Assembly (NCBI GenBank): GCA_036172245.1 | Contig: JAYWIR010000022.1 | Coordinates: 496,001-560,000 of the forward strand | Reading direction: 5' to 3' | DNA length: 64,000 nt | From: Raillietiella orientalis | Lineage: Eukaryota | Part shown: positions 1 through 37,970 of the stretch, in pieces | Layout of the letters: every line of letters begins with the position of its first letter | Position numbering within the stretch: position 1 is the first letter of the stretch | Notes under the pieces: model-generated | Told to the model about the DNA's origin: nothing | What the model saw: only the letters and a program-made list of their open reading frames with translations | The model's database searches: none | Translations under genes and position numbers: made by a program

Positions 1-3000
1 CACTTCTGGAGCAAAATCACTTATGTGCTGTTTTTCTTTTTCAAGTGCTGCATTGGAAACAAACATGGGAAAATAACAGTTCTGAACCTCCATAAGGTTA
101 AGTTTTGCATCAAAGAAGTTCTTAATAACATCCCAAATTGCATATGCCCAAGGCCTTAGGATGTAGCAGCCACTCACATCATAATATTCAATCATTTCAC
201 CTTTGGTTATCACTTGTGAATACCATTCTGCAAAGTTACTATGCTTTGCTGCTTCTAGTCCCAGACGTGTCTGCTTTTTGGTTAGTGAGGTTGCATTTGA
301 CTTGCTGTTCTTTGATAATGGAGACTTAGCATTATCAACTTGTTTGTCTGATACAGATTCAGTACTTTTACAATGAGTTGTCTTGCTTTTTGGTGATCTG
401 GAAACCTGCTCTGTTTGCTTCTGTTTGCCTCCCTTTTTTAAAGTCTCTTCTTTTTTGATTTCCAGCTTTTTCTCTTTTGAAATCTCTTCTTTTTTGATTT
501 CCACTTTTTTCTCTTTTAAAATCTCTTCTTTTTTGATTTCCACCTTTTTCTCTTTTAAAGTCTCTTCTTTTTTGATTTCCACCTAACAAAAAAAGTATTC
601 ATTTATGAATGAATCTATGTCAAACTTAATCATCATAATATAATGAAAACAAAGATTTTTATCCAATTTCTTTTGCTGATACGATGTGTTGATGGGAAAT
701 ATGTTAAGACAGAGAAGTAATAGAAATACAATCTGGAAACAATACATAAATGATGTGATGAGAACCAGAATGTGTCAAGATTTTTCACATAAAATATGAT
801 CACAGAATAGAATTTGTGTAAGAAAAAGGAAATGCTTTGAAACTAAGCATCCAAAAGCACACACAAACAATTGAAAAATAGATCACTTTACTGAGAACAA
901 TTGCAACAAAATATGGAAACTTTGCATATGTGACAGAATCAAAATGCTGATTAACTGACACAATGGCAACAATTTGTGGGCAGCATGGTATGTCAAGATC
1001 CATTTTGTTAGATGATTATGAAAACAACATGAATCTGAACAAAATCATAAACAAGGTGAACACACACACTTTGTGTTATTTGGTGAATACAGAGTAAATA
1101 AATGAAGAATTATACGATACAAAATAAGCATTTATGAAGAACTTGTATAAGGCTATACATTTGTTGACCTTATCAAATTGAATCACAAAGAATCCTACAT
1201 ATATTGTGAAAGGTTTTTTGGGAAAATTCAACATATAATGCTTACCAATAAATCAGTTCTTTCACACCTTACTCTACTTCTGCATATAACAATTCTAGTA
1301 GGCACAATATTTTCACTGATACATCCATTCCACAATTTATTTCATGCATCAAAAACACATGCAGTAGAATGCACAGCAAGACAAAATGCATACTGTACTC
1401 ACATCCTTAAAATTTTGCCCCAGCATAATTTTCTCAATAACCAATAAGGTGGATTTGGTGCCATCGGGAATTGCAATCAATTGTAAAGGATCTTCGAGCC
1501 ACGTATATTTGCTGCAAGTACACAAATTGTTTGACTTAAAACTAATGTTAGATAAGTAAGAAATCTTTTAAAATTACTACGTGAATATCGGAAGGGCACT
1601 CTAACCTTGTCTGAGAAACTACTATAACATAGTGTAAACTAATATTTTGCAAGAAACTATTCAAAACAATTATAATATTTACATGACCACTAATCTTATT
1701 ATTAAAGATACCTGGGTTGCTTGTAAGGTGATTCACAGATAAAATAACCACGCCGTTGCAGTTGAATAATGTCACCTTTGCATAATGTAGTCATTGCTGA
1801 CTCCACTAAAACAGGCAGCTCAAAATGTGACTGATGGTCAACAAATTGCTTAAAATCTTCATCCTTGGCCAATACTGCTTTGCTAATGATAGCTGTATAA
1901 TAATGTAAGGTGCAAGGAATGGGACAAACTCTTGATCCAATAGGTAACCATGTAAGCTTCAGAGTTTTTTTATAATTCTTGTCATCAAGATTTGCTTGCA
2001 AAATAATTTTTGTGATCACTTCTTCTACCCTTTAAATCTATGAATATGATTTTGTTCATATGCTACGTACTTTTGTATGTGATGCACTAACATATTTCCC
2101 CAGCCAATCAGAGTAACATTTTCACCTTGGATTACTAATTTAGCATCTTCTTGTTCTAATAACACCTGCGAAGATAACCATACTTTCTTGGATCCAACAT
2201 CTGCATTTTTTGGATGAAGAGCCATTTCTATTTCCTTTTCTTCAATTCCAATGATTTCTACTGGTACATGATACTGAGCATCAATAGCAGTATAGCGAGG
2301 AGCTACTGGATCAATAATCTACCAAAATACGTAACGAATTCTATTGGTATGCTATAAACATCAAAAGATGTTTTAAGGTGGATACCTTTTTATTGAAGGC
2401 CCATATTTTATCCCAATCCATTGCCACAACAGAACGAGATGATCCTTGAGCTAAAATAAACTGCTTCAATCCATCCACAGTCATTCCCTGTCTCAAAATT
2501 CCTCTGACTGTTGGGAAACGAGGATCATCCCTAAAACGATTATCATTTATTGATCAAATAAAAAATGCATGCTAGCATTAGCTACCAGCCATCAACCAAG
2601 CCTTTCTCCACAAACCAGGTGAGTTTACGCTTGGAAAGTACTGTGTGCATCATGTTGAGTCTGCTATACTCATAAATATAAGGCTTCCGTAAGTTCAGGG
2701 TTTCCAAAATCCAATAATACTGCTCATCTCGATCATGGTATTCAGTGGTTCGAAGTGCGTGAGTGACCCCTTCTAGACTATCTACTATTGGACAGGCAAA
2801 ATCATAGATAGGATATACTCTAATAAAACATAAATCAGAATTCGATGTGTATATGTATTCTCATACTTATGTTTGTGTCCAGTACGTGGATGGGGAACAT
2901 TCTTGCATCTATATATAGTGGGATCTCTCATGCATCCATTTGGAGACTGCATGTTGATTTTTACTCTAACACAAAAGTTCTGTCCTTTCTCACTCCCCAG

Positions 3001-4814
3001 TTTCATTTGCTCCCAAATTTCCAAATTGTATTTTACATCTTACAAGAACACACACTAACTTTTTGCAAGAGTAGCACCTTACCATTAGCTCTATTTCTGG
3101 ATTCCACTTTTTGTTCACGCTCTTGTTTCATCACTTCAGCATTTGTGTCATCTACATATGCTTTTCCTTCTTCAAGAAGTAGAGTGGCATAATGTAAAAG
3201 CTGATCAAAAAAGTCAGATGTAAAAGAAAATGAATCTGGTTGAATGTTTAACAGCTTCAGATCTTCTAAAATAACCTACAATAATGTATTTAATTGCACT
3301 GCACATGACATGGATGCCTACTTTTTCAAATTCTGCATTCTCTTTGTCCGGATTTGTATCATCGAATCGCATGATTAGTTTCCCTTCAAAAAACTGCTGA
3401 TAAAACTGATTAAGCAATGCAGCTTTTGCATGTCCAATGTGCAAATATCCACTGGCTTCAGGAGGAAAACGAACCACAACTTTGCCTTTCTCTGCATGAG
3501 GTAATGCAACAAATTTTCCTTCTTCTTTCACTTGTTGGTCCTGCTTCAATGTTTCTTTTTTAACATTCTGTTTCTTTTTTTCATTGAGTTTTTCACACTT
3601 TTTGTTTTGCTTCTCATGATTCTCAACAAGGCTCATATTTCTTTCAGGTGATATCCCTTTTTGCAAAACTGTCATCCAGTTTTTGAAAGTGCATTTTACA
3701 CATTGCTGCTCAGCTATAAATTTATACCAACGATGTATATGAAGAAATGTGTCTGTCTTTTCCAGCTTGGTCCATTCTGGAATGGCTTGACGACTTCACT
3801 GAGAGCATTTGATCAATAATGATACTTACAATTTAAGGCTGCCCAAACGTTTAAGTCAGCTATTGTCACTGTATATCCAACAAGAACAGAGCGAAACTGT
3901 AGACATCTATTAATGTACTCCAAACTACCTTTAATTTTACTTGGTTTCAACAGCTCTGTTTGAATAAATGTCAGCCAGTGATCAACCTGAAAATGCCAAT
4001 TAATTACCAAATGCATTTGAAGAACCACAAAAAAAAAGAATCAATGAACAAAAGAATCAAAGAATCAATCAATGTTGCTCAGCATGTTGTTTTTTTTCTA
4101 GATATTCAAAATGAGAGGAACAAGAAAATCAAGAGGTGAGAAATCAACAATTTTGAAAATCATTGTGATCTTTTCATCATACTGCAGTAACATAACTGAA
4201 TAAATTTGAATTCATTCATAAAATACAATTAAAATACATCATCTAACATAAGCATAATTTTAGAAAACACATTTTCGTACTTTTTTCAAACGTACCACTC
4301 CATAAGCATTCAAAAACAGAAAACTGAATAAACTTAAACTAAACCAATAGTAAAAGTTTTCCTATTCACTATTTAGGTATTAACAATGTTTAGCATGTAT
4401 GAGAAACTCAAATATACATCTGCAAAAATTTCCTTAAATACCTCAGTTTTGAGTAAGTCTGTTGAGCCATAGAGAGCTAATCTTGGAAAAATTTTTGCCA
4501 AGAATCGTGAAATAGAATATACATCTTTTAATTTAATTTCTGGAGATACTTCTAGCTCAGTGTGCTCATCCCAATGAATATCCACCAATGTTGGCTCTCT
4601 GACAAACTCTGCAGCTAACAAGGCACCTAAATTACAAAAGTTACACTCCTACTTTGAAATGAGATAAATAACTTAAAGAGAGGAAATAATAAAACGTAAA
4701 ACGATTGCTACTTTCGTATCGTATTTAACTTAGCGGCACACTGTGTGTAACTAACATTTGCAAGGAATACTCACCTAAGGGTGGTTCGTTTCTATTGCAT
4801 ATCAGTTTGTACAT
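1..4814 (-). CDS. EPRS: Bifunctional glutamyl-prolyl-tRNA synthetase (multi-exon, 3' part runs off the window start)
   Basis: Exon 1 4814-4775 ([14 protein letters not shown], donor GTGAGT), exon 2 4626-4442 (ALLAAEF...), exon 3 3986-3830 (VDHWLTF..., GST-like N-domain). GluRS core has [19 protein letters not shown] (HIGH), [10 protein letters not shown], a [17 protein letters not shown]-type motif and [10 protein letters not shown]. After a linker the ProRS domain starts: [12 protein letters not shown]...[31 protein letters not shown]...NCYFPMFVS...DFAPEV (about 280 to 1). The introns I checked are GT-AG with compatible phases. Confidence 0.96.
432..582 (-). repeat. Coding 39-bp tandem repeat (about 4 units) in the EPRS inter-synthetase linker
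   Basis: Unit GTGGAAATCAAAAAAGAAGAGA(C/T)TT(T/C)AAAAGAGAAAAA(G/A). In the frame continuous with ProRS it reads [50 protein letters not shown]. Confidence 0.93.
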
Positions 4815-8048: not shown

Positions 8049-11000
8049 ATGGATGTAGAATCTGCGAATTCGTTGATACACATCTGCCGGTCTTTAATTA
8101 AATCAATAGGATGTGTCATATGGTAAGTTGCGAAATCAAATGGCCATGTCCAGTTGATAATTTTAGTTTGGAAGTTGTTCAGTTCCCTCTTGTGACCAAA
8201 TGCGGCCATCTTCTGTGCAAAGTTTGTGTTCAGAAATACAATGAAAGGGGATATGTCACATGTCCTGTTTGCAAATCGAAAATTCATCGAAGAAGCCTTC
8301 AAAACAGCGATCCTTTTAATCATTTGGTCCAAGCTGTTGAACATTTGGTAAATTGTATATCAGAAGAGAGTGGTATTGAACTTAAAGAACAGTGTAGTAT
8401 GTAAAAGAATGTAGCATTTGGTTTTCATATCGAAGTAATGTGGTTTCAGATCTCACAACCAAAAACTTGAAGAGGAAAGTTCCATTACCATCTGAGAAAC
8501 ATGTTACAAAATTGTTGAATGCATCAAAGAATACTAAAAATTCGGATCTAAACGAGGAGCCGATCATTCAGAAAACAGATGAAGTGGAATCAAAACTGAA
8601 TTTAAGCAATACCATATGTAAAGTCGCAAAAGAAAATTTGCATGAGAACCAGACCATTTCCAAACATGAAACAAATGTTAATAAGGGGAGGTCTCGAACA
8701 TATTGTAATACATTGCGAAAGAGACTATCTGCAGAAAGAGAATGCCGAGTTCTGACAACCTCAAAAATAAATATCAAAGAAAATCAAACAAAGACTGCAG
8801 TCTCTTTTCAGGAAATCCCTTGCAATGGAGGAAAGCATCATGTGATCCATACTTCGGATGAAATTTCAGATATCATACATAGTCCAAAGCGGATAAAGAA
8901 AACATACATCAATAAATCATCGAAAGAATCAATAAGTTCTGAATTCATGGAAAATACTATGAAAAGGGATGTTTGGAAGAACTCAAAAAAGACAAAATCA
9001 AGAAAAGATTGTAAAGAAAATCAGAAGACTGATTTTTTAACAGCTGAAGGCTTTGGAGACAACAGGAAAAATTCAGGAACCACTTATGCGATGGAAAATT
9101 CTGGATCTAATGCTGAGGTGGATCTTCAGGAAAAGACCCTATCCAACTTTTCCAAAAGCTCTGTAAGCAATTGTGAGTCTTTGGAGGAAGAGGATTCTCT
9201 TACTCAGAATGGAGAATGTTTCTCGTTGGTTTCTTCTTTGGGAAGCTTTGTATCCGAACAAGGAAATAGAGAAATGCTTCAGACCAAGGAAGAGTCATTG
9301 AGTTTATCAACACCTATACAAACCAATGCAAGAAAAAGTGTTTTTCCATTCATCTATAGTGCAAAAGACGATCCACAACAAATGCCTTATATTAACACTA
9401 AAAATGGATTACAAATGGCAGCTTTGCCCTCTTGTCGTGTTCCCTTTTTTTTTCCAAACAAAATGAATTCCTTTTTGTTTTCTTTAAGTACTCATGAAAG
9501 AAGAAAAATACCATTTTTCCGTTCAGGACGGATTGTTAAGCCAAAACGAACATGCCATATTCGCTTCCTGCTGCTTTCTCCCCTAAGTGGAAGGTGACAC
9601 TAACTAACTGCAAAGTGTTTATAATGCTTGTTACAGAGATCAGCAGCTTGCAAAAGATATGGAAGTTGAATGCAATCTTTTGAATCATCATGATGTGTGT
9701 GCTGGAACAAAAAGGAATCCTATGGTATATTTAGATGCACGAGGTAAGACAAAATGATCAGTGAAAGTTGTAACTTATAACATTCTAGAAGCACTCAACG
9801 AGAAGTCTGTCCAGACACTCCATTCATCTCAAGAAAGTATACTCTTCAAAAAAGTTCCACCATTAGTGAAAACATCTGATAAATCTATTGATGAATGTGA
9901 GAAAGGGACTGTAGATCAACAGTTGTGTTTGGCATGTATGTGAATGCAAATTAACTGCTGCAGTGACTGACAGTGAGCATGTTGAAAAGCAACTGGTATA
10001 AGCAAATGCATTGCAGGTGTATCTTGTGAAGAACCTCCTGACAAGACAACAAACAATGATATGCAGGAAATCAGCACACTTCATCAAGCTTGTATTGTTG
10101 AAAGACTGTCAGCAGAAGCATATCAATCAACATGCAGTGAAAACTCTGTATCAGTGCTTATACATCATGAAGAAGAGAAATTGGAATCTTCATCCTTTTT
10201 TCATTCATCAATTCCTGAACAAATACATGATAAACTGGAAGATGCAGAAACCCAATGCTCTCCATTGGTTCCAACAGAGAAAAATAATGTAGATGGAGAT
10301 ATGCTCAGCTTATCACACACATCATTGGTAATGTTCTCATAGAAAAAAATAGATGGAATAACGATTATTTACAGGATCTTTCTGGGGAATCGAATCACCA
10401 ACATGTTGACAGTGTAGTAAACAAAGACAAGGAATCAGTCTTGTGTTCAGATCAGGTGTCTTCCCACATTCTAGAAGATACGCCAGATGTTCAGTCATCA
10501 GAAAGAGATGTAGCTAGAACATGCAACTCAGCATTTGATAATGAGTCTGAGCAAACTAAGTTGTTGGAACAAATGCTAGTAGGTAGCACTGTTAGCACTA
10601 CCCACATACTTGTGTGTAGATCAATCAACCAAGTGTCATGCCAACTGAGTCACCCATCCCATCTTCTTACCCAGCTGCACCTTCACAGAGTCTGCTATTT
10701 TTGGACAAAAGACAAGCCAAAGTTAATGACTGTGAAACTTCCAAACAGTATTTGATTGACTCTCCTCCATTGTTGTCACAATTGAGTATTACACATACCA
10801 TGAAAGATGACCAAGATGATCTTTTTTGGTAAATTGACATTGAAATGGATGGTTTATTGCTGTTTTATTAATCTCTTATAAAGCTCCCCTTTGCTATTGG
10901 ACATCTGCCCACCCAAGGCTCAGCTGTATCTCCTATGCACAGGCTTGGTGGCTTATGAGATGCATGAAGTATGTAAGTCTCAAATAGCCTCTTACTGTTT

Positions 11001-11821
11001 CTTTTTCAGGTCCACAAGTTTGCTCAGTTGTTCCATGCAGATGTGTTGACTTCTGCTACGCCTTGTTTGACTCACGTGATTGTTAAACATCATGCAGATC
11101 TAATTGCAGAGAGAACATTGAAATACCTGTTTGGATTAGCAATGAGTAAATGGGTTGTCAGCATTCAGTGGATTCATGATTGTTTGAAAAAGGAAAAGCT
11201 GTTGGATGAGGTAAGCAGCTCAAGATGAACAGAGACTATATGTGTATCTAGGGTCCTTATGAGATGGTGGATGTGTCTGGCTTTCCAGGACCTAGAGAAG
11301 CACGCTTGCACCCTCGAAAAATTTTCTCTGGTTTTGAATTTTGTTGTTTAGGCCCCCTAGAATCTTCCATGCCAATGTTCCAGTTGCAGGTCTTGTAATT
11401 GCAAGTACATTTCCCCAACTACTTTTGATTTTTCAGGAACTGATTATTCTATGTGGTGGTGTGCCACTTACATCTCCTGACATGTTTTCTTTTGAGCCAA
11501 CCACTGTGTCCCTAATTGTTGCTAGTGATATTCCCAATGAGCATCCCAGTCCACTTATGATGAGTATGTTTTTTTTTTCTTTCTTTCTTTTTTTTTTTTT
11601 TTTGCAAAGATCAGTATACTGCAGAGAGCCTCTTTTTAATAGATTGGTGGCATCAGTATAAGGTGTTGTCTGTAGGCTACTACTGGATAATTGAATGCAT
11701 TGGTTTACAGCAGCTGGTATCTGTGATTGATTATTTATTATTTGCTGTGGACATTGTTGAACTTAATGCCCTAAGTTTACCTGAGGGTATGTTGCAAGTG
11801 CCAAAATATGAATTTACTTAA
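8049..11821 (+). CDS. BRCA1: BRCA1 orthologue (N-terminal C3HC4 RING, long Ser/Lys/Glu-rich middle, C-terminal tandem BRCT); multi-exon
   Basis: Exon 1 8049-8122 MDVESANSLIHICRSLIKSIGCVIC, a 44-nt intron, then LEVVQFPLVTKCGHLLCKVC...CPVCKSKIHRRSLQ (cf. human [24 protein letters not shown]...CPLCK...KRSLQ). Large exon about 8449-9592. BRCT1 reads LYLLCTGL...VHKFAQ...THVIVK...AERTLKYLFGLAMSKWVVSIQWI, linker GPREARLHPRKIFSG, BRCT2 ELIILCGG...WIIECI. Stop TAA 11819-11821. Confidence 0.93.
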
Positions 11822-21500: not shown

Positions 21501-23729
21501 TTGCTTTCAGTACATCACGAGAAGAACTGAATGGGGCAGGAAAAGGAGATGAGATGGTTGCTGTTTTCACGTTTTTCACGTTGTCGTTTAGTAACTCGCA
21601 ACACGAATGTAAAAAAAGGAAAAAAAGGGTAGTTGCATCATTAGGTGACCAAGGGATAGGAACACTCCGTGTAGCAACTCGCTCATCAGGCCCTGTTGAA
21701 ATCAGGCTTGCCATGGCGCAGTGGAAAATTTACCATCGGTTGTGTTAACTTACCAAGAACCAGCTGCATGAGTAAATTACAGCTCTCTCGTTATTCATTT
21801 ACTTATGTAACATTAAAAAAAAAAAAAAAAAAAGAGCGATCGTGAGTGTGTTTTCTAAATGTTGCACTTGTGGTAGACTTCACGATCCGATTGCAGCACC
21901 CGGTTAAATCTTTGTATTGATTTTTGGCGGACAGATGTGATCGTTTCAAATGAATGTTTTTCGAAAGGTTTTCTTTCGTACGTAGCCGTTTTTGGAATTG
22001 TGGAACCCCTTGCGTGCTGCCCACCTTTCCGAAAAATCCACGGAATCCAGTCATTAAATGAAAGATTGATTTTTTAGCATACAGTTTTTTCGAGTGTCAG
22101 AAAGGAAATTTGTTGAAGCATCGCAGAGTTTAATGCCTCGCACTTGCGGTTTCTAGCAAATCTGGTGTTGTGATCGATTGACCATGTGGGTGAATTAGCC
22201 ATGGGCAGTTTTCCGTGAAGGAGGAAAACGTCATCGCCCGTGATTTCCCTGCATTCTCGATGAACCGCCGGGTCTCCGCTTCTTTCGCTAAATGAAAACC
22301 CTACCCATCCCATTGCCATCCCATAATCAGCGGTGTGCCTGTGGTTTCAACCTGGCCGGAATGTTGTGAAGTGTCAGCGTGTAGATTAACGTGCCGATTC
22401 TCTCTGATGGAACATTGGATTCAAGGATGATGTGAGCAAGGTGCCGGCTCACCGCGTTCTTCAGCTCGCGCCCATGCATTCGTTGGGAACATCCTTTTTT
22501 TTTTTTTCGGTGAAATGAAGCAGTCGAAAGGTGAAAAATTTCATCTTCGGAAAATGCTTTAAAAATACTCAGCTGTTTTTATATAGATGGTAAACGAGAG
22601 AAGTTGTTTCATTTTTGCAGTCCCTTCGGTGAAGACTTTGCATTTCCTCGTCCTAAACTCATTTTTCTCATCGATGCAAAGAAACTGTGTGCGTTTATTT
22701 TTACGGGCAGAGTTTCCAGTCGTCAAAGTTAAAGGTGAAAACGAAGTAAATTATTTTTCCCAATTTTTGTGTTTCACATGTCTACCAATTTTCCAAGTCA
22801 GCAGGACATTTCATAATTCTGTGCTTCCAAATCGAAGGAGTAATTTCCGTTAATAATTAATGGCTGCTGCAATTTGAACGGTGCTGGGTCACGTGCTTTA
22901 GATTTCTTCTGATTGTTCGCAATTACTTATAGAATAATTCATCGGATCATTAAAATGAATGTTGCAGGTTGTAGTGCGGCTTAAAGTGTGTGATCACATT
23001 TGCAAGAGAGTATTTAGACAAATTGATCATGGTTTCACCTTTTTTTCCCTTCTAAACCCCGTGTCCGGCTGTACGGTGTTCAGGTTCCACTCACAGGTGT
23101 CACGGTGTTCGATGGGAATTCTTTCGCCGTTGTAACTGCATTTCGTATTCATTGCGTGTAATGAAATCACCCCAAGTCATAACGAAGGCCTATGAAATTC
23201 ATAGTAACACATAGATAAATTTGTCTATTTAGCTGTCGTTTGCGATGACCGAGACGAAAAATCGAAAGAAAGGAGGAGGTGAATGATATTTATCCAAGTT
23301 GTTTTCATTAAGGTAAAGTAGTTTGAAAAGTGTTATACAAATACGAGTTAAGATTCCTGTTTGCATTTTCGAGATAACAATAACCTCAACTTTGCATTTC
23401 ATCCGAATTAGTTTGGTGAAAGCATGAATGAATTAGTGAATATATCTATCCACAATAAGTGTATGCCACCGTATCCACTAATACTGGAAACAAGACTGGT
23501 AATTTCTAGGTAACCCATTTGTTATAACCCCGTTTGCCAATGTAGTTTTTTTTTTTTGTATTTGCTTTACTTGAATCAAGTAGAGCAAAACTGTATGTAA
23601 AGAGTATCCACTGATCCAGAAAAATTGTGGAATAAATACTTACTATGGTTTGGATGGGGTTGACATTTTGGCGGTGGAAGCAAGGAAGCCTGTAAACTAA
23701 TGATTGGAACCATTTTAGGTGGATTCTAA

Positions 23730-27815: not shown

Positions 27816-30800
27816 AATCGTGTAAATAAGGGAATTTCCGGATTTCATATAAGTAATGGAAATTCTGAGGCTGTTTGTGCATATGATGTTTCAAAGTCTG
27901 TTGTTTTGAGATAGCTAGATGGACGGGCTTAAATGTCGATGTCTGCTTAGCGTTTTCGTGAATTTTTATGGTTGAAGGTCGAGTTTCACGTGCAGGTTTC
28001 AAAAATGCTTGCCGAGTGAACGTAAAGAGTTAAAGAATTTGCCTCGTGACCGATTCCCAATCCGCAAACGGTATCTTTGAGCATCCAGAGGCTACGGGTT
28101 CAATCTAAAAGCACATTCGATTTCCAGCTTGCTAAATCTTCTCCTGTTTCGTAAGAACTCATCCAACTGACGTGCTTTCGGATCAGCAAATGCTTTCTTC
28201 GGAATTGGCATCTGTGCTTTGTCCGTGCAGTTGTAAAGAGTTTTCCTGCACACTGTAGACATGCTGAGCACATGTAAGAGTTTCGTAACGATTTCATTTA
28301 GTGCAATCGACGTTGGTTGCTTCGAGCTTTGAAATGAAAACACATTAGAGCTTTTGCTTGCGTGTGATCATGATGACCCACGTAAGTAGTCAACAGCACG
28401 TGTGACGTTACATCATGCCGAGCCCTCAGCACTTTTGCTCTTAGTGCTGCAACGGAATTTCGTTCGGGATTTCGAGCTGAGGTGTTTACCAGGCAGCAAG
28501 TTTGAATGGCTCGAACAGTGGTTTCTACTAGATACATGTTACTGGTCTCACACTCCACTCGACTTCCTCTAACAAGAGAAGCAACGACGGCGTCGCTTTT
28601 CCGACACGGAGAATCTCGACTTTGGGGGAAGGGGCAGAGAAAAGATTTAGAAAAAATTTACGTCTCGTGGTTCGTTTACATGAGGAGCAAGGATGAACAC
28701 GGTAGCTGAAAATGCGAACAAGAAGGGCCCTATTTCAAAATCCATGTCGAATCTGCCATCGCAATGTAAGTGGGACCGTAGTCGGACCATAGAAGATTCG
28801 AATCCAAATCTTATGGCGACCTCAAGTCGTCACAAGATTTGAAATCTTTTTTTGTTTTTAAAAATGCAAGAACTAGGCTTGCAACAGTTGAAAAATATGT
28901 AAAGTCTTGATTTTGTGTTTTGCAGAGGCATGTGGTGTTTTCCCTGGGGCGCAAAACGAGAACGTACGTGGGAATTTTCTCACTTCGGTTCTTCCCATTG
29001 TATGCTGGTGTGCACCAATGTTCGCATTTGTTTAAAACCGCGGCAATGCTAATGTCAATAGCCCTCTGGCTTCCTTGGCAAGTCTGGCATGTTGTTTCGA
29101 ATCCCCCTCACTCTTCCTTCCTTTGTCTCTTTTCCGGGAATCATTTTCTTCTTCTATCATGGGCTAAGCGAATCGCGCGCCAGTGACTTTGGGTCCATCC
29201 CTTCCTTTCAAGCTTCAGCCCGCAGGTGGTTTTCCTTCCGTGTGTTCGACTGTAGATTTTTCCCGATGCATGAGATCGTATTTCATTTTTTCGGGTGTCG
29301 ATGTACTCAAAATGCTTTGAGTTTCACAAATGTCACCATCGTGAATTTTGCCAAAAAAAAAAAAAAAAAAGTCCTTTCTGTTGGACCGTTCTTACAGAAC
29401 AGGCTTCCCGATTCTGCACAATGCCGAGATATACTTATGCTTTAAGATTTGTTGTGATAATTTCATTGTGCTGTTGAACCTCATGTTTTCCCTCTTTGTC
29501 AGATCATAATTTCGAACTGTTCTCAAGTTCATCTGATGCAGAACCAACGGATCACTCCGAAGTTTCCCGCAGCACCGTTAGGGAGAACACTGACGCAAAA
29601 ACAGTTCAGGCGTACCCTATGGCTTTCACTGTAGATTTGACTACGAACTCTTCTTCGGATATGGGGAAGAAATTAGAAATTGGTGATAGCATTAGCCAGT
29701 ATGTGCCAAAACGCAAAAAGGTTTCCGCCGTTTTGAAAACGAGCGAACATAAGGTGAATGCAAATCTTGCCAACGTCTTATTTTATGGAGTGTGAAAGTT
29801 TTGTGAAGTGCTGTGCTGTGTGGGCGAATGCGCACCGTGAAGTTGTGTTCCTTCCTCCTGTTGCTTCCACCTTCCACCCGGGATCGGAATGTTCCTTCAG
29901 TTCGAAGATTCACGTGAGGTGCTCGTTTACGGCGGTGGAACCGTTTCGGTTTTAAGATCGCCGGTGCGACTTGCGATGCAGGATGCTGCAAAAATCCAGA
30001 TCGGTATGCGACGCCTGCTCCGTGCATCTGATGCGAGAGTGGTCGTGAATTTCGTTCCCGGAAGACACGCGTGCTCTCGGAAAGGTGGAACCTGATTGCC
30101 GTCTTGCCTGCTGCCGATGAACGGCATTTAATCATTTGGTACCGTTTGCCGCGTTCCCGCTGCCTCCTGCCCGCCGGAAGACTCGAATCCCAAAGCAGTG
30201 ATGCCATGCATTTGTCACAGATTCACGTCAACGCGTACTTTTTGTCTGTGCCAGCGCCGACCTCCCCTCGGTTGCGTCTTCCGGATTGAAACTTAACCGA
30301 ACTAAACGCGGAGGTCTCTCGAACAGCATCGATGCTGTTGGCTGGCATCAGCACCCATTCACTCAAGGTAGAACTTTGATCATTATGATGAGGTCGGAAA
30401 CCAGCTGTCTTGTCTCGTTTTCGTTTTCGGGTTCCCCCCTTCCCCTCCCCCAAGAAAACATCTACGAATACAATTTGAAAACTCCATCAGAGTCGACGGT
30501 TTTCTGGAATTTTCGTTCCACAAATCCAAAGACTCCCAAGGGAAACCGGGTGAGTTCTCGGAAGCTTCTATGAACAAGCTTTCCATCACATGATGTGGAA
30601 AAAGGTTCATAAAAGCTTGTACTTACTGTATGCAAAAATCTTCAGAATCGTACACATATTGAGTAATGCAGTTTTCATTCCGTCCTTAACTTGCCACCTT
30701 TTAGAAGCGTCGTTCCAAGGAGAGCCTGTTTTCTTAAGCGGTTTTGTTTATTCCAAGATATTCGTGTTGAAACAAGCCAAGATTTCTTGCCGCTTTGTAG

Positions 30801-33800
30801 AACATCTTGATTGCTGCGCTGCACGCCGGATTCGAATTTCCAAAAATCCCATCCATTAGAGACCCCTTAAAGACCTGTTGTATTTCGTTTCCATGCATTT
30901 CTTAAACTCTGAGCTTGAGAACTGGGCGCAGTAAAACTTTTTCAAGCTTCTTTTAGTCACACGCCAAGGAAGTCAAGTAAAAGGTCAAAAAAAGATTTCG
31001 AGATTCAGTAATTGTAATGGGGATATATGGGGGGGGAGGGGAGTCGAGGAAACACACGCAGAATTGTAAGTGGGTCCTGATACACAAGTTGGCCCGAAAA
31101 GGTCACATTCACACAAGCTGCACGACTCTGCAGTGTCCTGTAACCGCACGTTTTGAGCACATAGAGCACTAGATCTTGGAGGAGTTTTCTCCCAGAGGTT
31201 TGGTGGTGTAGGCAAACGAGATCGTGTTGCTGCTGTCATGGCTAGCCTCCGCCCCACACTATCCAGGTCCCATGCAGTCCGGCGCTCCTCCCGTAGTAGA
31301 TGGTTGCCATATGGATGCGTATACTAAATTCGGGAATAAGAATCGTTCCTCCCCAAGCAAGTTTTCGCAGGTAAAGTGTCTGAAGCCGATTTTTGCTGGA
31401 CGTCCTTTTGGAGTGGGGGAACAGTGAGGTATTCTGGTCCTCCTCCTCCTCTTTTTCTTGTTTCCGCTGTTTTCACTCAGTATGGCTCGAATCGTACAAA
31501 GCAGCCCTACTATAATGGACGCTTTAAATCATTGTGCAGCAGCAACTCGAACTCCTGCAGTCAGCACAGTCAGTGGAAGGATTTCAATGCACGAGGGAAA
31601 AAATACGATCCTTGTACAAATTCCTCTCTATTCCGATACCTTAGCTTATGATCCACGATCGAGTTGCGGTTGCCGTGGATCGGTTTGCACGTGCGAACTC
31701 ACTTTTCCATGCAGGTGGAATTTTCTCGAAATCTCGTGTGCTGCTCTGCACTGTGTTTGTGTGGGCTTTCCTTTTTGCGTTATCGTTAGCCTCGAAGCAT
31801 TGCTTGCTTCTTCCTTGCATGGAGAATCTTCTCTCTCACTCGTATCAGTTGCTACGTTGTCCTAATGCTTTCCTTGCTTTCCGTTATTTTTAGGCTGCTG
31901 CAAACGATCGCCAGATCACCGTAAAACCGAAACCCGATATCAAAGCGAGAAATTATTTCGGCAGTAAAGATGCCAACAAAAACGGTGCAATCATCCGTGC
32001 ATCCCAATCTTGCAAGAGTGATGCTTCTAAGAAAGGTGGAATTTTAGAAAACCTCCTCTGTTTTTATGTTGTGCTTTTTTCCTGAATGATTTTTTTCTCT
32101 CTCTCTCTCTCCCGAATTTCAGTCAAGGATGGAAGAAGCGATCGAGTTTGCAGTGAGACTTCGGAAAAAGAGCCAAACAGATCTTCCGTGAAGATGGGTG
32201 CTTTGGCTGCTTCTCGGGTGTCAAATTCTTCGTCTGACGACATAGGTTCAGAAAGGGTTCCCAAGGAATCAGCAGCAGGCAGATCCGGCAGGAGCAAAGA
32301 CAACCCTGCCGTGTCGGCATTACAGAAATCGAAATCTGTTCCCAAAGTGTGTTCTCACGCGTGTCGGACTGCCAAACGGAATAAGCAGATCGGTTTATCG
32401 GAAATCAAAGACATGGCTGATCGCGATGCGAGTCTTAGAAGAGCGAGTGATAGCAGCGATACGATCAGTGAAACTGGCACGTATACGGTAGAGATGGATT
32501 CCAGCGTCTTGCAAGTGGAGGCCGCTTGCCAAGAGTACATCTCCGACAGCACGGTGAAGCTGCGAAATTCGGACGCGTACGTCAAGCAATGGGTTTTGAA
32601 ACACAACGAAAAGCATTCGTTCAATTTTCCCATCCCGGACATCCAGCAAGTTGGTCCCGGTTGTGCGAAGTTCGAACCCAGCGAACCCAAAAACATTGCG
32701 AAGAGGCCTCCCCTGTACAACAGCACCTCGTCCTCTTCCTTGAAGAATTGCTTGGGGTTTTCGAAAGCCGCGTTCTCCAGGAGTGCTGCCCACGCCAAGG
32801 TCGGTAGCACCAGATCTGCGCAACAGCAACAAGCGCAATTTGTGTTGTAGAACCTCTCTGGTAGTCCATCGAACTTGGAATTCTCAAAGAATTTGGAGCA
32901 TTTGCAGCAGCACGTGAGTGACGTTCACGTAAACAAGGCGTTTAGCGCCCAGAACATTGGAGTCAAAGCTAAGGGAGTGGGTCCGAAGTCTGCGCCCATC
33001 AAGCAGAATCTGATGGAGGAGGTGTCTTCAGGTCGTGACGCGGGCAAACCCGGTCGCATGAACAAATTCAATAAACGCCCAGTGCAACTTGAGAGGCAGG
33101 CGAAAAAGTCGGTCCCTCCTCTTTCACGATCTATGATAAGTGATAAACAGTTGGGCTCCACGCAATCCTATCCCGTTGTGAAATCCGCTTCCTTTAAACT
33201 GACTACCGAAAATGCGTTTGCTCGTTCCGAAAGAGGGCGTCAGAGTTTACGCGTAAGTTTGTATGATGGTGGGTGTCATTTCGCCTTTCTTTCGTCCGTG
33301 AAGACCCCGAAGTGCACTTCCGCGCAAATTCGCAGTAGTTCTGCTTTGTCGAATAAGGGTCTGGAGTTTCAAAATTGGCGCCGCCGCCAGGAGTACGATC
33401 CTCGGAAGGCGGCAGCTGAAGGTAGACGTAAGAAGAAGGAAGCTGTGCGAGCACAGGAACCCCCAAACATGTGGTAGAAAAATTCTGCAAGTGTGCTTCC
33501 TGTTTGTGATTTTTCTTTTTTTTTTTTTTTTTTTTCTCTCCCTCTCTCCCACTAGTGACGATCTCACCGGTGTGATGCGCTCTGCCTCGTTTCACTGTAC
33601 GGATAATTTTTCTCCTACTTGTTCGCATCTTCCAGTGGTCAACGGTCTGGAAGATCAAAGCTTGCAAGAGCAGGCGTATGGAGGATTAAGGTGTGCCAAG
33701 GTGGGGTTTATGTGCAATGCAACTTGGGGAAGCTTCGCTGCAGGAAGTTCCGTTTCACCAGGTCACCCGAAGTCTTGTGAAACTAGAGGCTCTTGACAAC

Positions 33801-34172
33801 TTGGTCATCACCACAATCTCAGTGCTTTCCTCCAAGCTGTGCCGGGGTGCGGAACAGCTGCTGCTACGGCTCAAGTAATGGGGGAGGCCCGGATTCGCGG
33901 ATGCCTTGACCTTTTTTTTTTTTTTTTTTCTTGTCATCTCAGAGGTGCCGTCGACGAAGGTGAGGTGGCCACCAGGTTGTCGGCAGTGCTGGAACAGCTG
34001 GCAGAAGAAAACGAGGATTCTAGGGAGCCCAAAACCGCTGCGCGGGAGCTGATTAACGTTTGGAAGAATCTGAAAAAGGTTGAAAGTGCCGAGGAAGGTA
34101 CGGTTCCGGAAGAAGGGAGAGCGGCACCGGTGCACCCTGAATGTTTCAGTGATCGCCTTGATACTCGAGTAA
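23730..34172 (+). CDS. CEP170-family-like (centrosomal/microtubule-associated) low-complexity protein; multi-exon
   Basis: Phase-compatible exons: 23730-23958, 29503-29753 (MAFTVDL...KLEIGDSISQYVPK), 31894-32035, 32123-32346, about 32389-32799 (SDTISETGTYTVE), 32851-33252, 33304-33473 (FQNWRRRQEYDPRKAAAEGRRKK), then MRSASFH, LEALDNLVITTISVLSSKL and KTAARELINVWKNLKKVE, with last exon VIALILE* ending 34172. These motifs resemble the CEP170 'SDAGTYTIE' block and the C-terminal blocks of invertebrate CEP170-like proteins as I recall them. Orthology is not verified. Confidence 0.7.
27445..27474. repeat. Perfect 11-bp-stem hairpin (intronic)
   Basis: CTGATGCACCG-TATCTACT-CGGTGCATCAG. Confidence 0.9.
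27768..27813 (+). repeat. Poly(A) tract, about 46 nt
   Basis: Uninterrupted A run in the long first intron of the CEP170-like gene. Confidence 0.95.
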
Positions 34173-34799
34173 ACGGCGAAAGCGTGGCTCGAGCCTTGAC
34201 GACAGTGGTGCCTGCGGTTTGTAGCTAACGGACCTTCAATAACCTGCAGCTACAGAGACGCTTCTTCACCTGATGGTCGAAGGGATCTGGAAACGTGGTT
34301 CTGGATTTCATCACGGCACTCGTGGTCATCCCGCAGCGTTGTTCTTATCTGACCTTCAAAGAGTAACAACCACGTCGAGTGCAGTTCTGCATTCTTTTTC
34401 TTTCCTCCCCCCCGCCCCTCCCTATTTGAGGTTGTTCGATAAGTCCAGAGTGCCTTCCAGAGTGAGCTAGCCCGCGATTGCGTAATGACTCGTTAGCTTA
34501 CAGTCGTCGGCTAACATGTAAATGGCATATGGGTTTCCACGTGCCTCAGGTACCTTATGAAACGAAGGATATGCATAGCTTGCAGCATGGCGTGAGAAAA
34601 ATGACACGCGGAAAAGGAAATATAAATTCTTATGCTAGCCCTGGTTGCTTTCCTCTGTACCGATTTCCCCGGAGGTAAACTTTGGACGTAAACCCAGTTA
34701 TTTCATGTTTGTGGAATCGGCGAAAAGGAAAAGCTCGAAGTGGATGTGCCGCAGGATGGGAAATGGCGAAAAGAGTGGACCGGATGTTTGCTCGGGCGT

Positions 34800-35800
34800 T
34801 TCACCGAAAGCTTTCGGTAATGAGATTTCTGCTGAAAAGTGGCTTCACTTCATTGAATCCGCCGGGTCGGCCCGATTCACTTCGCTCTCCTCGTGGAACA
34901 TCTACCGGGGAATCCGTCGCGGCGGAATTAGGAGGTGGGTGGTGTGCACTCTTTCAAAAGCTTGGGACACTCCAGATGCTGAAAAGTAGGTAAGGAGAGT
35001 AAGCGCGGTGAAGATGGAGGCAGAAAATGTAGTTTAGCTGGAAGGGACTCTTTTTTTTCCTGCGTTTGAAAATTCCGGAGACTGATCTGTCTAAAAGGTG
35101 AAAGGAAAGCACAGCTGTTTTTTCTCCCTGTGGAGTTCCGTTTCACGTAACCACGTCAGCACTTCCATCGAGTCCATCGTTCCCTTTGAATAGTGGTCTC
35201 TCTGAAAGGAAATGAGGAATCGAGCTGCAACAAGGCTGTTTTACCTGCATAAGGAATCAGGTATTGGAAGACACGGAAGGGGGGGGGGGACTGGTGGTCG
35301 GTCCATGGCAAGAGTCTGCGCCGTTGATTGGCCCAACATGATTTGAGCTCATATTCAGGGAACGGTTGCCTTCCGTGGTCGCATACAGATCCCTAATAGT
35401 GAGGTATGGGCCTGCAGCATTTCAGTGGTATTTTGGTTCAAAAAAGCTGTGGAGCTATGCTCATTACACGCGAGTGATTCATAATAATCTCAAGGGTATC
35501 TGGCGACTTAGAGTGGGGCTCTCCATAAAGCGTGGGGGTTCATTGATTGGCTCAACCATATGGCAGGTATTGCTGTGGCAGGTGAGCGTTAAACTCTGGG
35601 AGTGCCCTGCAAGAAATGGGCTTCGGGAGGGTTCCTGAACTCGCTTTAGGGAATCATAAACAAGAAACAGGCCGGGAGCTACTCAGGTGTGCAAAAAGCA
35701 GATACACTGACAGGAGAGCAAGGAAGGAGAACAAGGGGGAAGAGTTCCCTAGCTTGCAGGCCGATGGCTGCACTGAAGCAAACTCGACAAAGGGTGGGGG
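34800..35800 (+). mobile_element. Degenerate Ty3/Gypsy relic (gag-like fragment plus integrase core and C-terminus)
   Basis: SAEKWLHFIES is gag-like. Integrase-like stretches: SLIVRYGPAAF (cf. IVSDNGPQF), YTRVIHNNLKG (cf. YHPQSNG), MGFGRVPELALG (cf. tG.sP.EL) and KSRYTDRRARK (cf. K.YxDRRR). Catalytic residues are lost. Confidence 0.5.
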
Positions 35801-36319
35801 TGCACCATGTGCAAAGAGACTACCGAGGGAAAGAAGCAGAGTGGAACGGGGAAGTCTGTTTTTTCTTGATTTTTTGTCTTCGTTCCCCGTAGGTTTCGAG
35901 CGGAAGAAACTTCCGCCAATCGTGCTGAGGGACAGGCAGGCAGCTGATGATGGGGGCTTCCCAAGTAGTGGTTGGCGAAGGTTACAAGTGACTTGTAGCA
36001 CTAGGTACTCAGGGAAACCCGCAGGCTCTCTGTAGGGCACATCGGATAGGTGGCGAGCACTAGAAGAATGTAGAACTGATCAAAACGAATGGAAGAATGC
36101 CCGAATCGATGCTGGCGGGTAGATCTGCACTGCGTGCTTTTTTTTTTCTGGAGGTCATTATCCTGGACGGAAGTGAAAATGGAAAGTTACGGATGTGGTA
36201 TGAAAGGATGGTACAATAGGTTCGTGTGCATTCGGCATTTAAGACTCCCATTTGATCATAGGCTTAATTGGTGATGCTGGAAATCAGTTGCAGGATCATG
36301 TGATCGGTCCGAACAATCA

Positions 36320-36560
36320 TAAAAAAATAAACATATAAACATATACAGTCAGCTCATTCTATACATCAATATATATATATATATACATAAACATAAATAT
36401 ACATATAATAAGAGTGTATATTTATTTTTTATGATCATGATATATATTAATCCATGTATTAATCTTTGATCAACAATATATTAATATTTTAATAAAATTT
36501 CGTCACTGAATTTTTATAAATCTTTGTTCCAATAATATTGCTGTTAATATATATGCATAC
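36320..36560. repeat. Very AT-rich low-complexity/(TA)n tract
   Basis: ATATATATATATATATAC and ACATAAACATA units, abruptly flanked by GC-richer transposon-derived DNA. Confidence 0.85.
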
Positions 36561-36899
36561 GTGTTTATTTTTCATGATCGTTCGGGATTTTGAACCAGAC
36601 ACTATGTGTAGATAAGAGCTAGATGTGCTCTAGAGGACGGCTTATGGTGGTTGATGAAGATCGCACACGCTCCTGAACTCTTCGTTCTCCTTTTGCATTC
36701 TGAATATTCGGAATTGTGGCAGTGTAAATATCCTAAGAGATAATGATGGTAATGATTGCTGGTGCTGAAGCTCTCCCACTGGGTTTGCATATCGGTGCTA
36801 ATAACATGGCAAACTGTCCTTTGGCTGTCGAATTCGCATTCCTGGGAAACGGGCGTAGTCCCACCACCTGGCTGTAGGGAGGGAGAGGGGGGGGGGGGC

Positions 36900-37970
36900 G
36901 TCCTCCGGCTGATTGGTGACTCGCACACTTTTGCTGACTTTGTCCTTTGGCGAGCTCGTCCAGATGAGCAAGCAGCAGCGGAAGGAAGTGCCCAGAAGAC
37001 CAGAATTCTCGGCGGATCCCAGTTGCAGCAGCCGAGGGTAAGGAAAAGGGAGAGAGCGAGGAGTTCTCTGTCAAGATAGATGCTGGAGGCAAGGACAACG
37101 ACGGAAGAACGCTACATCGCGACCGGCTAAGAGCAAGGGTAAGCGCTGCGAGCCCAGCGGGTCGTGACATCCCTTCGCAGAAGCCGGCCTGCCGGACTTC
37201 TGCATAGGGTTCTCCGAGCAACGCCCGAAGATTGTCGGTACCACAATGTCACTGGCGGAAAAAATAAAAAATAAATGTGGCGAATGGGTGAATGCAGGAC
37301 GGAGACCGTGGAATTCCCAGTCCTTTAGAGGGTGTGTAAAGATCCACCTGCCGAAGCAACCGACCCTGAAAATAGAAGGTCCTCAAATGTCGAGCCCAGG
37401 CCCAACCGCCGGTACAGTGCCTTTTCTCTCCTCCGGCATCCCTGGATCGGGAGACATGCGGTTCTGAGCGAATAGGATGGTTGCGACGATGTTTGCGCAG
37501 AAAAGTTCGATACGTGAGCTCTCCTGAAGCTGCAGCCAGAGGAGCAGATCTTGGTTATGGTAGCAAACGCTGAAATGAGACTCCGATGTTCTGATGACCT
37601 GATGCGAAGGTTCCTTGGTAGCAGCCTTTGGGCACGGCTCAGTCGATCATAACTCTCCGGAGTTCTGGACCTGACCTAGGGCGGGTTATTATACTCGATA
37701 TTTCTCGCTCCTGTCGACTGCTTCGGAGGAACCGTGGACAGAAGCAAAGTAAACACCGAAAGCTGACCCTCTGCTTCACCAGGAGAGTACCTGCTTCGGC
37801 TGGAGCACTCGTCGTGGGATCCCTGGGATCAAAGAACGGAGCTCCCACTAAATGGAGAACTCGGAGAAAGGAATGGTGTGCTTTAGCATACAACATTCCT
37901 CAAATGATAGATTGGATGCAACCACGGCTGGACGAATCGAGGGAGCCCATCGTGAAGGTAGTGTAGAATT
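36900..37970 (+). mobile_element. Degenerate non-LTR retrotransposon (LINE) ORF2 relic
   Basis: RLIGDSH (cf. endonuclease GDFN), MSSPGPTAGTVPFL (cf. KSPGPDG..EF), and MRLRCSDDLMRRFLG (cf. RPISLLN.D.K..), in the expected order. Heavily frameshifted. Confidence 0.4.

What the first reader, a model, noticed from the sequence alone, without database searches (positions are those of the whole stretch)
270..1510. Fused EPRS whose linker appears to have no WHEP domains, replaced by a Lys/Glu tandem repeat
Seen: GluRS ends at ...[25 protein letters not shown] with a phase-0 donor (GTGAGT, 1402). The next clear phase-0 acceptor (TTTGTTAG, 583) opens an exon reading ([13 protein letters not shown])x~4, then a Ser/Lys-rich stretch, straight into ProRS ([10 protein letters not shown]). 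That gives a linker of about 120 aa with no QG..VR.LK WHEP signature, and I saw no Gln-Gly codon pair on the minus strand of the 820-nt intron. Known: characterised metazoan EPRS proteins carry WHEP repeats here (three in human, used for GAIT/RNA binding), while C. elegans has split GluRS and ProRS genes. Inference: this may be a third architecture, fused but WHEP-less, with a recently expanded charged repeat that could form a helical spacer or bind tRNA.
Basis: partly seen in the sequence, partly recalled or inferred. Interest (0 to 1): 0.72.

Follow-up and report, generated by a model that had tools for sequence, protein, structure and literature searches.

The report
Fused EPRS gene without WHEP domains
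This animal's fused glutamyl-prolyl tRNA synthetase gene joins its two enzymes with a short lysine-rich linker containing a young 13-residue repeat instead of the usual WHEP domains, an arrangement already described in a few other invertebrates.

Summary
On the minus strand, the last GluRS exon ends at 1403 with a GTGAGT donor. An 820-nt intron follows, and a strong acceptor at 583 opens an exon (582..1). That exon reads 3.8 copies of a 39-nt/13-aa Lys/Glu repeat, then a 51-aa Ser/Lys stretch, then ProRS. No WHEP domain appears in any frame of the intron, the linker or the whole 64-kb window, by Pfam, tblastn or a purpose-built WHEP profile with positive controls.

Ray & Fox 2014 (PMC4072531) already reported linked EPRS without WHEP domains in Schistosoma mansoni, Pediculus humanus and Acyrthosiphon pisum. 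I found three more in the databases: Opisthorchis viverrini and two unnamed proteins. On a quick tree the loss occurred four separate times.

The Ser/Lys stretch resembles the Lys-rich spacer that precedes ProRS in WHEP-bearing EPRS. So the WHEP array was lost rather than replaced. AlphaFold predicts the repeat as one long helix.

The splice itself is inferred. No RNA run and no whole genome were available, so a second, WHEP-bearing copy cannot be excluded. This is a new member of a known kind, of low to moderate interest.

The parts
4775..4814 (-). EPRS exon 1: ATG at 4814, [13 protein letters not shown](G), donor GTGAGT at 4774
   Evidence: Read directly. It resembles the N-termini of the EPRS proteins shown (M.L.L..S.S.PP).
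1708..4626 (-). GluRS body: GST-like N-terminal part and class I catalytic and anticodon-binding parts, in about 9 exons separated by short introns. HIGH motif ([11 protein letters not shown]) and LSKRK motif are present.
   Evidence: Colinear tblastn HSPs to EPRS proteins. Pfam PF00749 E 4.5e-24 on 3217-3795. Motifs visible in the ORF translations. Splice contexts.
1403..1511 (-). Last GluRS exon: (S)[36 protein letters not shown], ending in phase 0
   Evidence: Weak tblastn match to the ...IPDG end of GluRS in Lingula and Saccoglossus.
583..1402 (-). 820-nt intron, 30% GC, GTGAGT...ttttttgttAG, with no coding signal
   Evidence: Pfam on 27 six-frame segments of the region found no WHEP at E<=10. 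With the custom WHEP profile, the best score inside the intron was 1.2 bits, E 77. There are 0 phase-0/phase-0 cassette-exon candidates, 1 AATAAA (at 1341), and 32 short hydrophobic ATG...GT mini-frames.
433..582 (-). Tandem repeat, 39 nt x 3.8: [13 protein letters not shown] / [13 protein letters not shown] / [13 protein letters not shown] / [11 protein letters not shown]. 19 K and 15 E in 50 aa.
   Evidence: TRF score 263, 93% matches. Codon-split copies, pairwise identities, composition. AlphaFold2 single-sequence model: residues 3-50 form one helix, with block pLDDT 88-95 from residue 11 and 78 for residues 1-10.
280..432 (-). 51-aa Ser/Lys/Thr-rich basic stretch ([17 protein letters not shown]...NATSLT), net charge +6, predicted disordered
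   Evidence: Translation, composition, pLDDT below 50 for residues 54-115. Same type as the Lys-rich spacer before ProRS in 211 WHEP-bearing EPRS.
1..279 (-). Start of the ProRS catalytic part ([44 protein letters not shown]...DFAPEV), cut by the window edge
   Evidence: 71-80% identity to the same part of EPRS from many animals.

Best explanation
[quoted passage not shown] After splicing 1403 to 582, the GluRS C-terminus joins ProRS through about 120 residues: a 19-aa tail, a roughly 50-aa Lys/Glu block, and a 51-aa basic, disordered Ser/Lys stretch. The Lys/Glu block was made by recent tandem amplification of a 39-nt unit, probably by slippage or unequal exchange. The Ser/Lys stretch corresponds to the Lys-rich spacer that all EPRS carry just before ProRS. 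My inference is that the linker acts only as a tether. The repeat forms a stiff charged helix of about 7 nm, and the basic tail adds flexible reach and perhaps unspecific affinity for tRNA. Both aminoacylation activities would be kept, while WHEP-dependent RNA or protein binding of the kind used in the mammalian GAIT system is absent. What is shown: the sequence anatomy, the absence of WHEP, the repeat, and the predicted helix. What is inferred: the splice, the single transcript, and the tether and tRNA-affinity role.
For: Anatomy and phases. Repeat: TRF 3.8 copies, 93% matches. Copies 1-3 share 37/39 bases and the unit is found only here. The differences between copies are mostly single bases: T/I, L/S and V/L changes plus one synonymous AAG/AAA. 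No WHEP: Pfam gave 0 of 27 segments at E<=10. tblastn with Lingula (3 WHEP) and Saccoglossus (6 WHEP) EPRS at E<=10 gave no hit from their linker parts anywhere in the window. A profile built from 467 WHEP segments of 221 proteins scored at most 7.3 bits (E 0.92, at 21806-22096, unrelated to this gene) over 3956 six-frame segments, against 70-76 bits per domain in the controls. The linker exon itself scored -8.3 bits. Fusion: the frame is closed by the acceptor's TAG at 585-583, and there is no Met between 582 and the catalytic core. Donor and acceptor are both in phase 0 with consensus signals like the gene's other introns. The frame stays open for 101 codons upstream of ProRS (P about 6e-4 by composition). 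Precedent: WHEP-less linked EPRS are in print (PMC4072531). Among 183 fused EPRS recognised by motifs out of 238 fetched proteins, 2 have 0 WHEP; Opisthorchis P0190 adds a third. Four independent losses were counted on a 34-row tree, and a single clade was rejected (p-AU 2.8e-7). A Lys-rich spacer is general. Helix prediction.
Against: No transcript evidence exists, because no RNA run was listed. The junction 1403/582, and therefore the fusion, rests on sequence signals alone. A weaker phase-0 donor (TTG|GTTATT, about 39 nt upstream of the 1402 donor) would shorten the tail by 13 residues without changing the architecture. No whole genome is held, so a second, WHEP-bearing EPRS copy, as reported for the pea aphid, cannot be excluded. 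ProRS is cut at base 1, so its integrity is unknown. This EPRS sits on a long branch (0.96 against a median of 0.29), which could mean a fast-evolving lineage or a relaxed paralogue. The helix comes from a single-sequence AlphaFold model with mean pLDDT 52 overall. The repeat is 68% charged and 26% hydrophobic, so it is not a textbook ER/K single helix. The tether and tRNA-affinity role is inference from general knowledge of Lys-rich synthetase appendages, which I recalled and did not test.
Confidence: 0.7

Rival explanations
1. This WHEP-less gene is one of two EPRS paralogues. A second copy elsewhere in the genome keeps the WHEP array, as reported for the pea aphid, and this copy is a derived, possibly specialised or relaxed duplicate.
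For: Ray & Fox 2014 describe exactly this situation in Acyrthosiphon pisum: a WHEP-less EPRS plus a variant with six WHEP domains. The window's EPRS has a long terminal branch, 0.96 against a median of 0.29.
Against: Nothing in the 64-kb window shows a second copy. The GluRS exons are intact, with catalytic motifs and colinear HSPs. Two other WHEP-less rows, Opisthorchis and P0043, are equally long-branched, which fits fast lineages as well as it fits paralogy. The question could not be tested, because no genome is held.
Confidence: 0.15
2. GluRS and ProRS are separate transcription units here, a fission like that in Caenorhabditis. GluRS would read through the 1402 donor to the stop at 1351-1349 and be polyadenylated after the AATAAA at 1341. 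ProRS would start from a small first exon inside the 820-nt interval.
For: Read-through adds only 17 codons before a stop, and an AATAAA follows 8 nt later. The interval contains 32 ATG...GT phase-0 mini-frames. Fission is documented for C. elegans.
Against: One AATAAA in 820 nt of 30% GC DNA is about the chance expectation (my own arithmetic from the base frequencies, about 0.7 expected). The mini-frames are all short, hydrophobic and without good donors. The consensus GTGAGT donor and the strong pyrimidine-tract acceptor are in the same phase. An open linker of 101 codons upstream of ProRS would have no purpose in a stand-alone ProRS. Per Ray & Fox, fusion is the rule outside Caenorhabditis.
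Confidence: 0.08
3. WHEP-coding exons exist but were missed, because they are divergent, split into small exons, or lost through an assembly error in a repetitive linker.
For: WHEP arrays are tandem and can be near-identical (Saccoglossus), which makes them prone to assembly collapse. Ray & Fox report highly degenerate WHEP domains in Trichinella.
Against: Collapse would leave at least one copy, and none is found at any threshold in any frame of the window. The window has no N. The interval is only 820 nt, 30% GC and full of stops. The 13-aa unit is too short and too young (93% DNA identity) to be a decayed 50-aa WHEP.
Confidence: 0.04
4. The locus is a decaying pseudogene copy of EPRS.
For: A long branch and the loss of a normally conserved module.
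Against: All GluRS exons seen are open and colinear, with HIGH and LSKRK motifs and canonical splice sites. The visible ProRS part is 71-80% identical to functional EPRS. The linker frame is open.
Confidence: 0.03

Closest known systems
Linked EPRS lacking WHEP domains in Schistosoma mansoni, Pediculus humanus corporis and Acyrthosiphon pisum (Ray & Fox 2014, PLoS One 9:e98493, PMC4072531; passages read)
   Same: GluRS and ProRS are in one gene with no WHEP domain between them. This is a lineage-specific loss within a family that otherwise carries 1-7 WHEP domains.
   Different: The species and probably the lineage differ: no protein above about 60% identity was found. The linker here contains a young 13-aa Lys/Glu tandem repeat. 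I did not see the linkers of those three species, so I cannot say whether any of them has a repeat. The paper links WHEP loss to parasitism, and the lifestyle of this organism is unknown.
Opisthorchis viverrini 'proline--tRNA ligase' P0190 (1223 aa) and the unnamed proteins P0043 (1141 aa) and P0090 (1310 aa)
   Same: All are fused GluRS-ProRS with no WHEP by the precomputed Pfam annotation and by my profile. Their linkers are 88-104 aa, Lys-rich (K 0.18-0.29), net charge +6 to +12, and end in KKQT before ProRS.
   Different: Their linker sequences are unrelated and none contains the [13 protein letters not shown] unit. They sit in four separate places on the tree.
Canonical metazoan EPRS (human, 3 WHEP; 2-7 in the fetched set)
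   Same: The GluRS core, the ...IPDG end of GluRS, the Lys-rich spacer, and [10 protein letters not shown] opening ProRS. GluRS identity is 54-59% and identity over the ProRS start is 71-80%.
   Different: There are no WHEP helix-turn-helix modules. The linker is 120 aa, against several hundred in the WHEP-bearing EPRS sequences shown.
Caenorhabditis elegans split ERS (six WHEP) and PRS (one WHEP)
   Same: Both depart from the standard fused, WHEP-bearing build.
   Different: C. elegans keeps WHEP domains and loses the link. This gene keeps the link, as inferred, and loses the WHEP domains.
Lys-rich helical N-terminal extensions of eukaryotic class IIb synthetases (LysRS, AspRS) that add unspecific tRNA affinity (recalled from the literature, not looked up here)
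   Same: A basic, Lys-rich, partly helical appendage next to a class II synthetase core. This is the functional analogy I propose for the linker.
   Different: No sequence relationship was tested or claimed. The position differs (between two enzymes rather than at an N-terminus), and tRNA binding is untested here.

Membership tests
Bifunctional glutamate/proline-tRNA ligase (EPRS) | Class I GluRS catalytic domain with HIGH and KMSKS-type motifs | tested here: met
   PF00749 E 4.5e-24 on 3217-3795. HIGHAKAA and LSKRK in the ORF translations. Nine colinear tblastn HSPs at 54-59% identity.
Bifunctional glutamate/proline-tRNA ligase (EPRS) | Class II ProRS domain downstream on the same strand | tested here: inconclusive
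   Only the first 93 residues of ProRS lie in the window. They are 71-80% identical to EPRS of many animals. The rest is beyond base 1.
Bifunctional glutamate/proline-tRNA ligase (EPRS) | Both halves in one mRNA and one polypeptide | tested here: inconclusive
   The splice sites are phase-matched consensus sites, the ProRS exon has no Met, and the linker frame is open. No RNA run was listed, so no transcript could be examined.
Bifunctional glutamate/proline-tRNA ligase (EPRS) | WHEP-TRS domain(s) in the linker (typical, not universal) | tested here: not met
   The positive controls scored 70-76 bits per domain, and the linker exon scored -8.3 bits.
WHEP-less linked EPRS (Ray & Fox 2014) | ERS and PRS linked, with no recognisable WHEP domain between them | tested here: met
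   Absence of WHEP is shown. The linkage is inferred as described above. The class definition was taken from passages of PMC4072531.
WHEP-TRS domain (PF00458) | About 50-aa helix-turn-helix with the conserved QG..VR.LK core | tested here: not met
   No Pfam hit at E<=10. No Gln-Gly codon pair on the intron's minus strand. No custom-profile hit.
Single alpha-helix (ER/K-type) domain | Long uninterrupted helix, stable as a monomer, very rich in E and K/R with i/i+4 pairing | tested here: inconclusive
   AlphaFold2 single-sequence model gives one helix over residues 3-50, with block pLDDT 88-95 from residue 11. Charged residues are 34 of 50, and V/I/L are 13 of 50, which is more hydrophobic than classic ER/K helices (the comparison is recalled). 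Monomer stability cannot be tested with these tools.

The most novel reading that the evidence does not exclude
The young Lys/Glu 13-mer array is not neutral slippage. It is a selected, convergent substitute for the lost WHEP array: a rigid charged helix that restores the spacing between the MSC-anchored GluRS and the dimeric ProRS and supplies unspecific tRNA affinity. Repeated WHEP loss (at least four times in my small tree, three of them on very long branches) would then mark lineages with fast-evolving or reduced translation-control networks. In those lineages EPRS reverts to a pure enzyme, and the linker is free to be reinvented from low-complexity sequence.
Probability: 0.15. Interest if true: 0.45.

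Novelty: new member of a known kind. Interest (0 to 1): 0.22.

Why it matters
EPRS is the textbook fused synthetase, and its WHEP linker carries its best-known non-canonical function, GAIT-type translational control. Each natural WHEP-less EPRS shows that the fusion itself does not need WHEP domains, and shows what minimal linker suffices. This instance adds another independent loss. It also gives a compact natural linker (helix plus basic tail, 120 aa) that could be used to test what the linker contributes to aminoacylation, complex assembly and tRNA handling. It does not change the picture drawn in 2014. Its value is as one more data point on how often WHEP domains are lost, and in what kind of lineage.

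Tried and rejected
1. RNA evidence. The look-up of sequencing runs (kind rna, window 1-4700) listed no RNA holder. Read laying therefore could not be used.

2. Whole genome. None is held for this window, so a search for a second EPRS copy was impossible.

3. Identifying the organism or close relatives.
- Two 'longer' protein searches gave no protein closer than about 55-60% over GluRS.
- A 'near' search with the linker (residues 1-125) gave 6557 candidates, none at E<=0.001.
- The earlier-findings look-ups gave nothing relevant.
- Rfam found nothing in the window.

4. ESM Atlas on the linker: no usable hit.

5. Complex prediction with two copies of residues 1-56 of the linker exon, to ask whether the repeat pairs as a coiled coil. 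The verdict was no support (score 0.01, mark 0.32). This is not evidence either way.

6. Pfam on 95 further open frames of the window (15, 80), looking for taxon clues or a WHEP-bearing neighbour. The only hits were RING, BRCT, a weak CFAP300 match, and the GluRS exon.

7. Rejected: the 4 x 13 aa block as a decayed single 50-aa WHEP. The copies are 93% identical at the DNA level, and the block scores -8.3 bits against the WHEP profile.

8. Rejected: the repeat as a dispersed minisatellite or mobile element. The unit occurs only in this array.

9. Literature. Searches found only PMC4072531 dealing with WHEP-less EPRS. I saw no paper describing a Lys/Glu tandem repeat in an EPRS linker, but I ran no search specifically for that. 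Subscription journals are not covered.
Full report
**What is there**

On the minus strand, the first 4.8 kb of the window holds the 5' two-thirds of a metazoan EPRS gene.
- The start codon is at 4814: [13 protein letters not shown], with donor GTGAGT at 4774.
- The GluRS body follows in about nine short-intron exons between 4626 and 1708. It matches EPRS proteins in colinear tblastn HSPs at 54-59% identity.
- It carries PF00749 (E 4.5e-24) and the HIGH and LSKRK motifs.
- The last GluRS exon (1511..1403) reads (S)[36 protein letters not shown] and ends in phase 0 before GTGAGT.
- An 820-nt, 30% GC intron follows.
- The acceptor tttttttgttag|GTG opens the next exon at 582 in phase 0, and its own TAG closes that frame upstream.
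- The exon is open to the window edge, 194 codons. It holds a 50-aa repeat block, a 51-aa Ser/Lys stretch, and then [34 protein letters not shown]..., the start of ProRS. That ProRS start is 71-80% identical to many animal EPRS.

**The repeat**

Tandem Repeats Finder gives 436-584, period 39, 3.8 copies, 93% matches, score 263.
- In frame, the copies read [39 protein letters not shown] and [11 protein letters not shown](GG).
- The differences are single bases: ACT/ATT, TTA/TCA, GTG/CTG and one synonymous AAG/AAA.
- Copies 1-3 share 37 of 39 bases, and copy 4 shares 30-32.
- The unit occurs nowhere else in the 64 kb at up to 8 substitutions.

So the array is a young, local expansion inside a coding exon. 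It is not a dispersed element.

**No WHEP**

Four tests agree.
- Pfam on 27 six-frame segments covering 1-1567 at E<=10 gave no PF00458.
- tblastn with Lingula (P0064) and Saccoglossus (P0037) EPRS at E<=10 gave no hit from their linker parts anywhere in the window.
- I built a profile from 467 distinct WHEP segments of 221 fetched proteins and ran it with all filters off over 3956 six-frame segments (8 aa or longer) of the whole window. The best score was 7.3 bits (E 0.92) at 21806-22096, far from the gene. Nothing in the intron did better than 1.2 bits (E 77). The same profile scored 70-76 bits on each of the 6 Saccoglossus and 3 Lingula domains.
- The linker exon itself scores -8.3 bits.

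In addition, the intron has no phase-0/phase-0 cassette-exon candidate under my criteria (15 codons or more, pyrimidine tract at least 0.7, GTR donor; 0 found). Its 32 ATG...GT mini-frames are short and hydrophobic. There is no Gln-Gly codon pair on its minus strand.

**Is it really fused?**

This is the weak point. No RNA run was listed and no genome is held. The case therefore rests on sequence logic:
- Donor and acceptor are both consensus sites in phase 0, like the gene's other introns.
- The ProRS exon cannot start translation on its own, because it has no Met before the catalytic core.
- The frame stays open for 101 codons upstream of the conserved ProRS start. The probability is about 6e-4 at the intron's composition, and 453 of 20000 random starts in the rest of the window, which has GC-rich parts, did as well.
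- A weaker phase-0 donor lies about 39 nt upstream of the 1402 donor (TTG|GTTATT). Using it would only shorten the GluRS tail.
- Read-through of the 1402 donor gives 17 more codons, a stop at 1351-1349, and an AATAAA at 1341. A GluRS-only short form is therefore conceivable, but one AATAAA in this AT-rich interval is about what chance gives.

I put the fused reading at about 0.7-0.75 and true fission at about 0.08.

**What is already known**

- Schistosoma mansoni,
- Pediculus humanus corporis,
- Acyrthosiphon pisum, which also has a second variant with six WHEP domains.

They also report highly degenerate WHEP domains in Trichinella, and that only C. elegans had unlinked ERS and PRS. They suggested a link between WHEP loss and parasitism. 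So the 'third architecture' is in print. Three literature searches (listings only for the other papers) turned up no further treatment of WHEP-less EPRS.

**More examples and recurrence**

Of the 238 proteins fetched are recognisably fused by motif. Their WHEP counts are 0 (2 proteins), 2 (16), 3 (96), 4 (39), 5 (11), 6 (18) and 7 (1). The two with none are the unnamed P0043 and P0090.

Opisthorchis viverrini P0190 escaped my motif filter. It has GluRS and ProRS Pfam domains, no PF00458, and only 1.2 bits against my profile.

These three linkers are 88-104 aa, Lys-rich, and have net charge +6 to +12.

I built a quick maximum-likelihood tree of 34 rows: 33 proteins chosen by me for taxonomic spread, plus the window. 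The other 205 fetched proteins were left out.
- The four WHEP-less rows sit in four places, giving 4 state changes.
- Forcing them into one clade costs 137 log-likelihood units (p-AU 2.8e-7). The group was named after the tree was seen, and long branches are involved.
- Three of the four have terminal branches of about 1.0, against a median of 0.29: the window 0.96, P0043 1.02, Opisthorchis 1.07. P0090 has 0.41.
- Among the 30 WHEP-bearing rows, only Culex (1.03) is comparably long.

**'Replaced' or 'lost'?**

In 211 WHEP-bearing proteins, the stretch between the last WHEP and the xLGLE start of ProRS has a median length of 64 aa (range 10-66), a median K fraction of 0.23, and a median net charge of +6. 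The window's Ser/Lys stretch (51 aa, 9 K, net +6) is of the same kind and in the same place. It ends in the same KKQT. The simplest history is deletion of the WHEP array with retention of the basic spacer. The 39-nt unit then amplified at the spacer's upstream edge. Low complexity prevents a real homology test.

**How it probably works**

AlphaFold2 without an alignment predicts residues 3-50 of the exon as one uninterrupted helix. Block pLDDT is 78 for residues 1-10 and 88-95 for residues 11-50. Residues 54-115 have pLDDT below 50. The ProRS fragment is not informative, and the overall mean pLDDT is 52.

A 48-residue helix is about 7 nm long (1.5 Å per residue, general knowledge). The repeat is 68% charged and 26% V/I/L. 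The 13-residue period does not keep a hydrophobic stripe in register (my own helical-wheel arithmetic). I therefore lean towards a charged rod rather than a canonical coiled coil, but this is open.

The proposed function is a tether: a rod plus a flexible basic tail that keeps the two catalytic bodies apart and may add unspecific tRNA affinity. The analogy is to the Lys-rich appendages of other eukaryotic synthetases, which I recalled and did not look up. WHEP-dependent functions would be absent.

**Organism**

The organism is unknown. No protein in the 5.8-billion-sequence collection is close.
- The best hits of a moderately conserved GluRS exon are mostly insects and Daphnia, at 45-54% identity.
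- The tree puts the window next to Daphnia plus insects (SH-aLRT 99), but on a long branch.

A pancrustacean origin is my best guess, at about 0.6, and long-branch attraction is a real risk. It is not a close relative of any annotated species.

**Verdict**

This is a new member of a known kind, with interest of about 0.2.

Noticed in passing
window 8102-11225, + strand: A neighbouring gene, divergent from EPRS, has a BRCA1/BARD1-like build. It has a RING-finger exon (8102-8401; zf-RING_5/zf-C3HC4, E about 7e-07), a 399-codon open exon with no Pfam hit (8398-9594), and a BRCT exon (10977-11225; PF00533, E 4.4e-10).
   Followed up: partly
window 28000-38000 and 46000-50000: GC content rises from 0.33-0.38 in the first 28 kb to 0.45-0.50 in these two blocks. 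They hold many long open frames on both strands and in several frames, and none has a Pfam hit. The cause is unexplained. It could be repeats, a CpG-island-like region, or a different kind of gene.
   Followed up: partly
window 1336-1351, minus strand: If the 1402 donor is not used, GluRS reads 17 more codons to a stop at 1351-1349, followed 8 nt later by the only AATAAA of the intron (1341). This could give a GluRS-only short isoform, or it could be chance in AT-rich DNA.
   Followed up: no
window 59771-60067, + strand: A weak match to CFAP300 (PF14926, E 1.8e-4, 21.3 bits, below the 27-bit cut-off) in a 99-codon open frame.
   Followed up: no
window 3530-3640, minus strand (GluRS N-terminal part): A second Lys/Glu/Asn-rich stretch ([38 protein letters not shown]) lies between the GST-like part and the GluRS catalytic core of the same gene. 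Charged low-complexity spacers seem to be a habit of this protein.
   Followed up: no
proteins fetched (tree): Three of the four WHEP-less EPRS rows have terminal branches of about 1.0, against a median of 0.29. WHEP loss seems to go with fast-evolving EPRS or fast-evolving genomes, a possible alternative or complement to the parasitism link proposed in 2014.
   Followed up: partly
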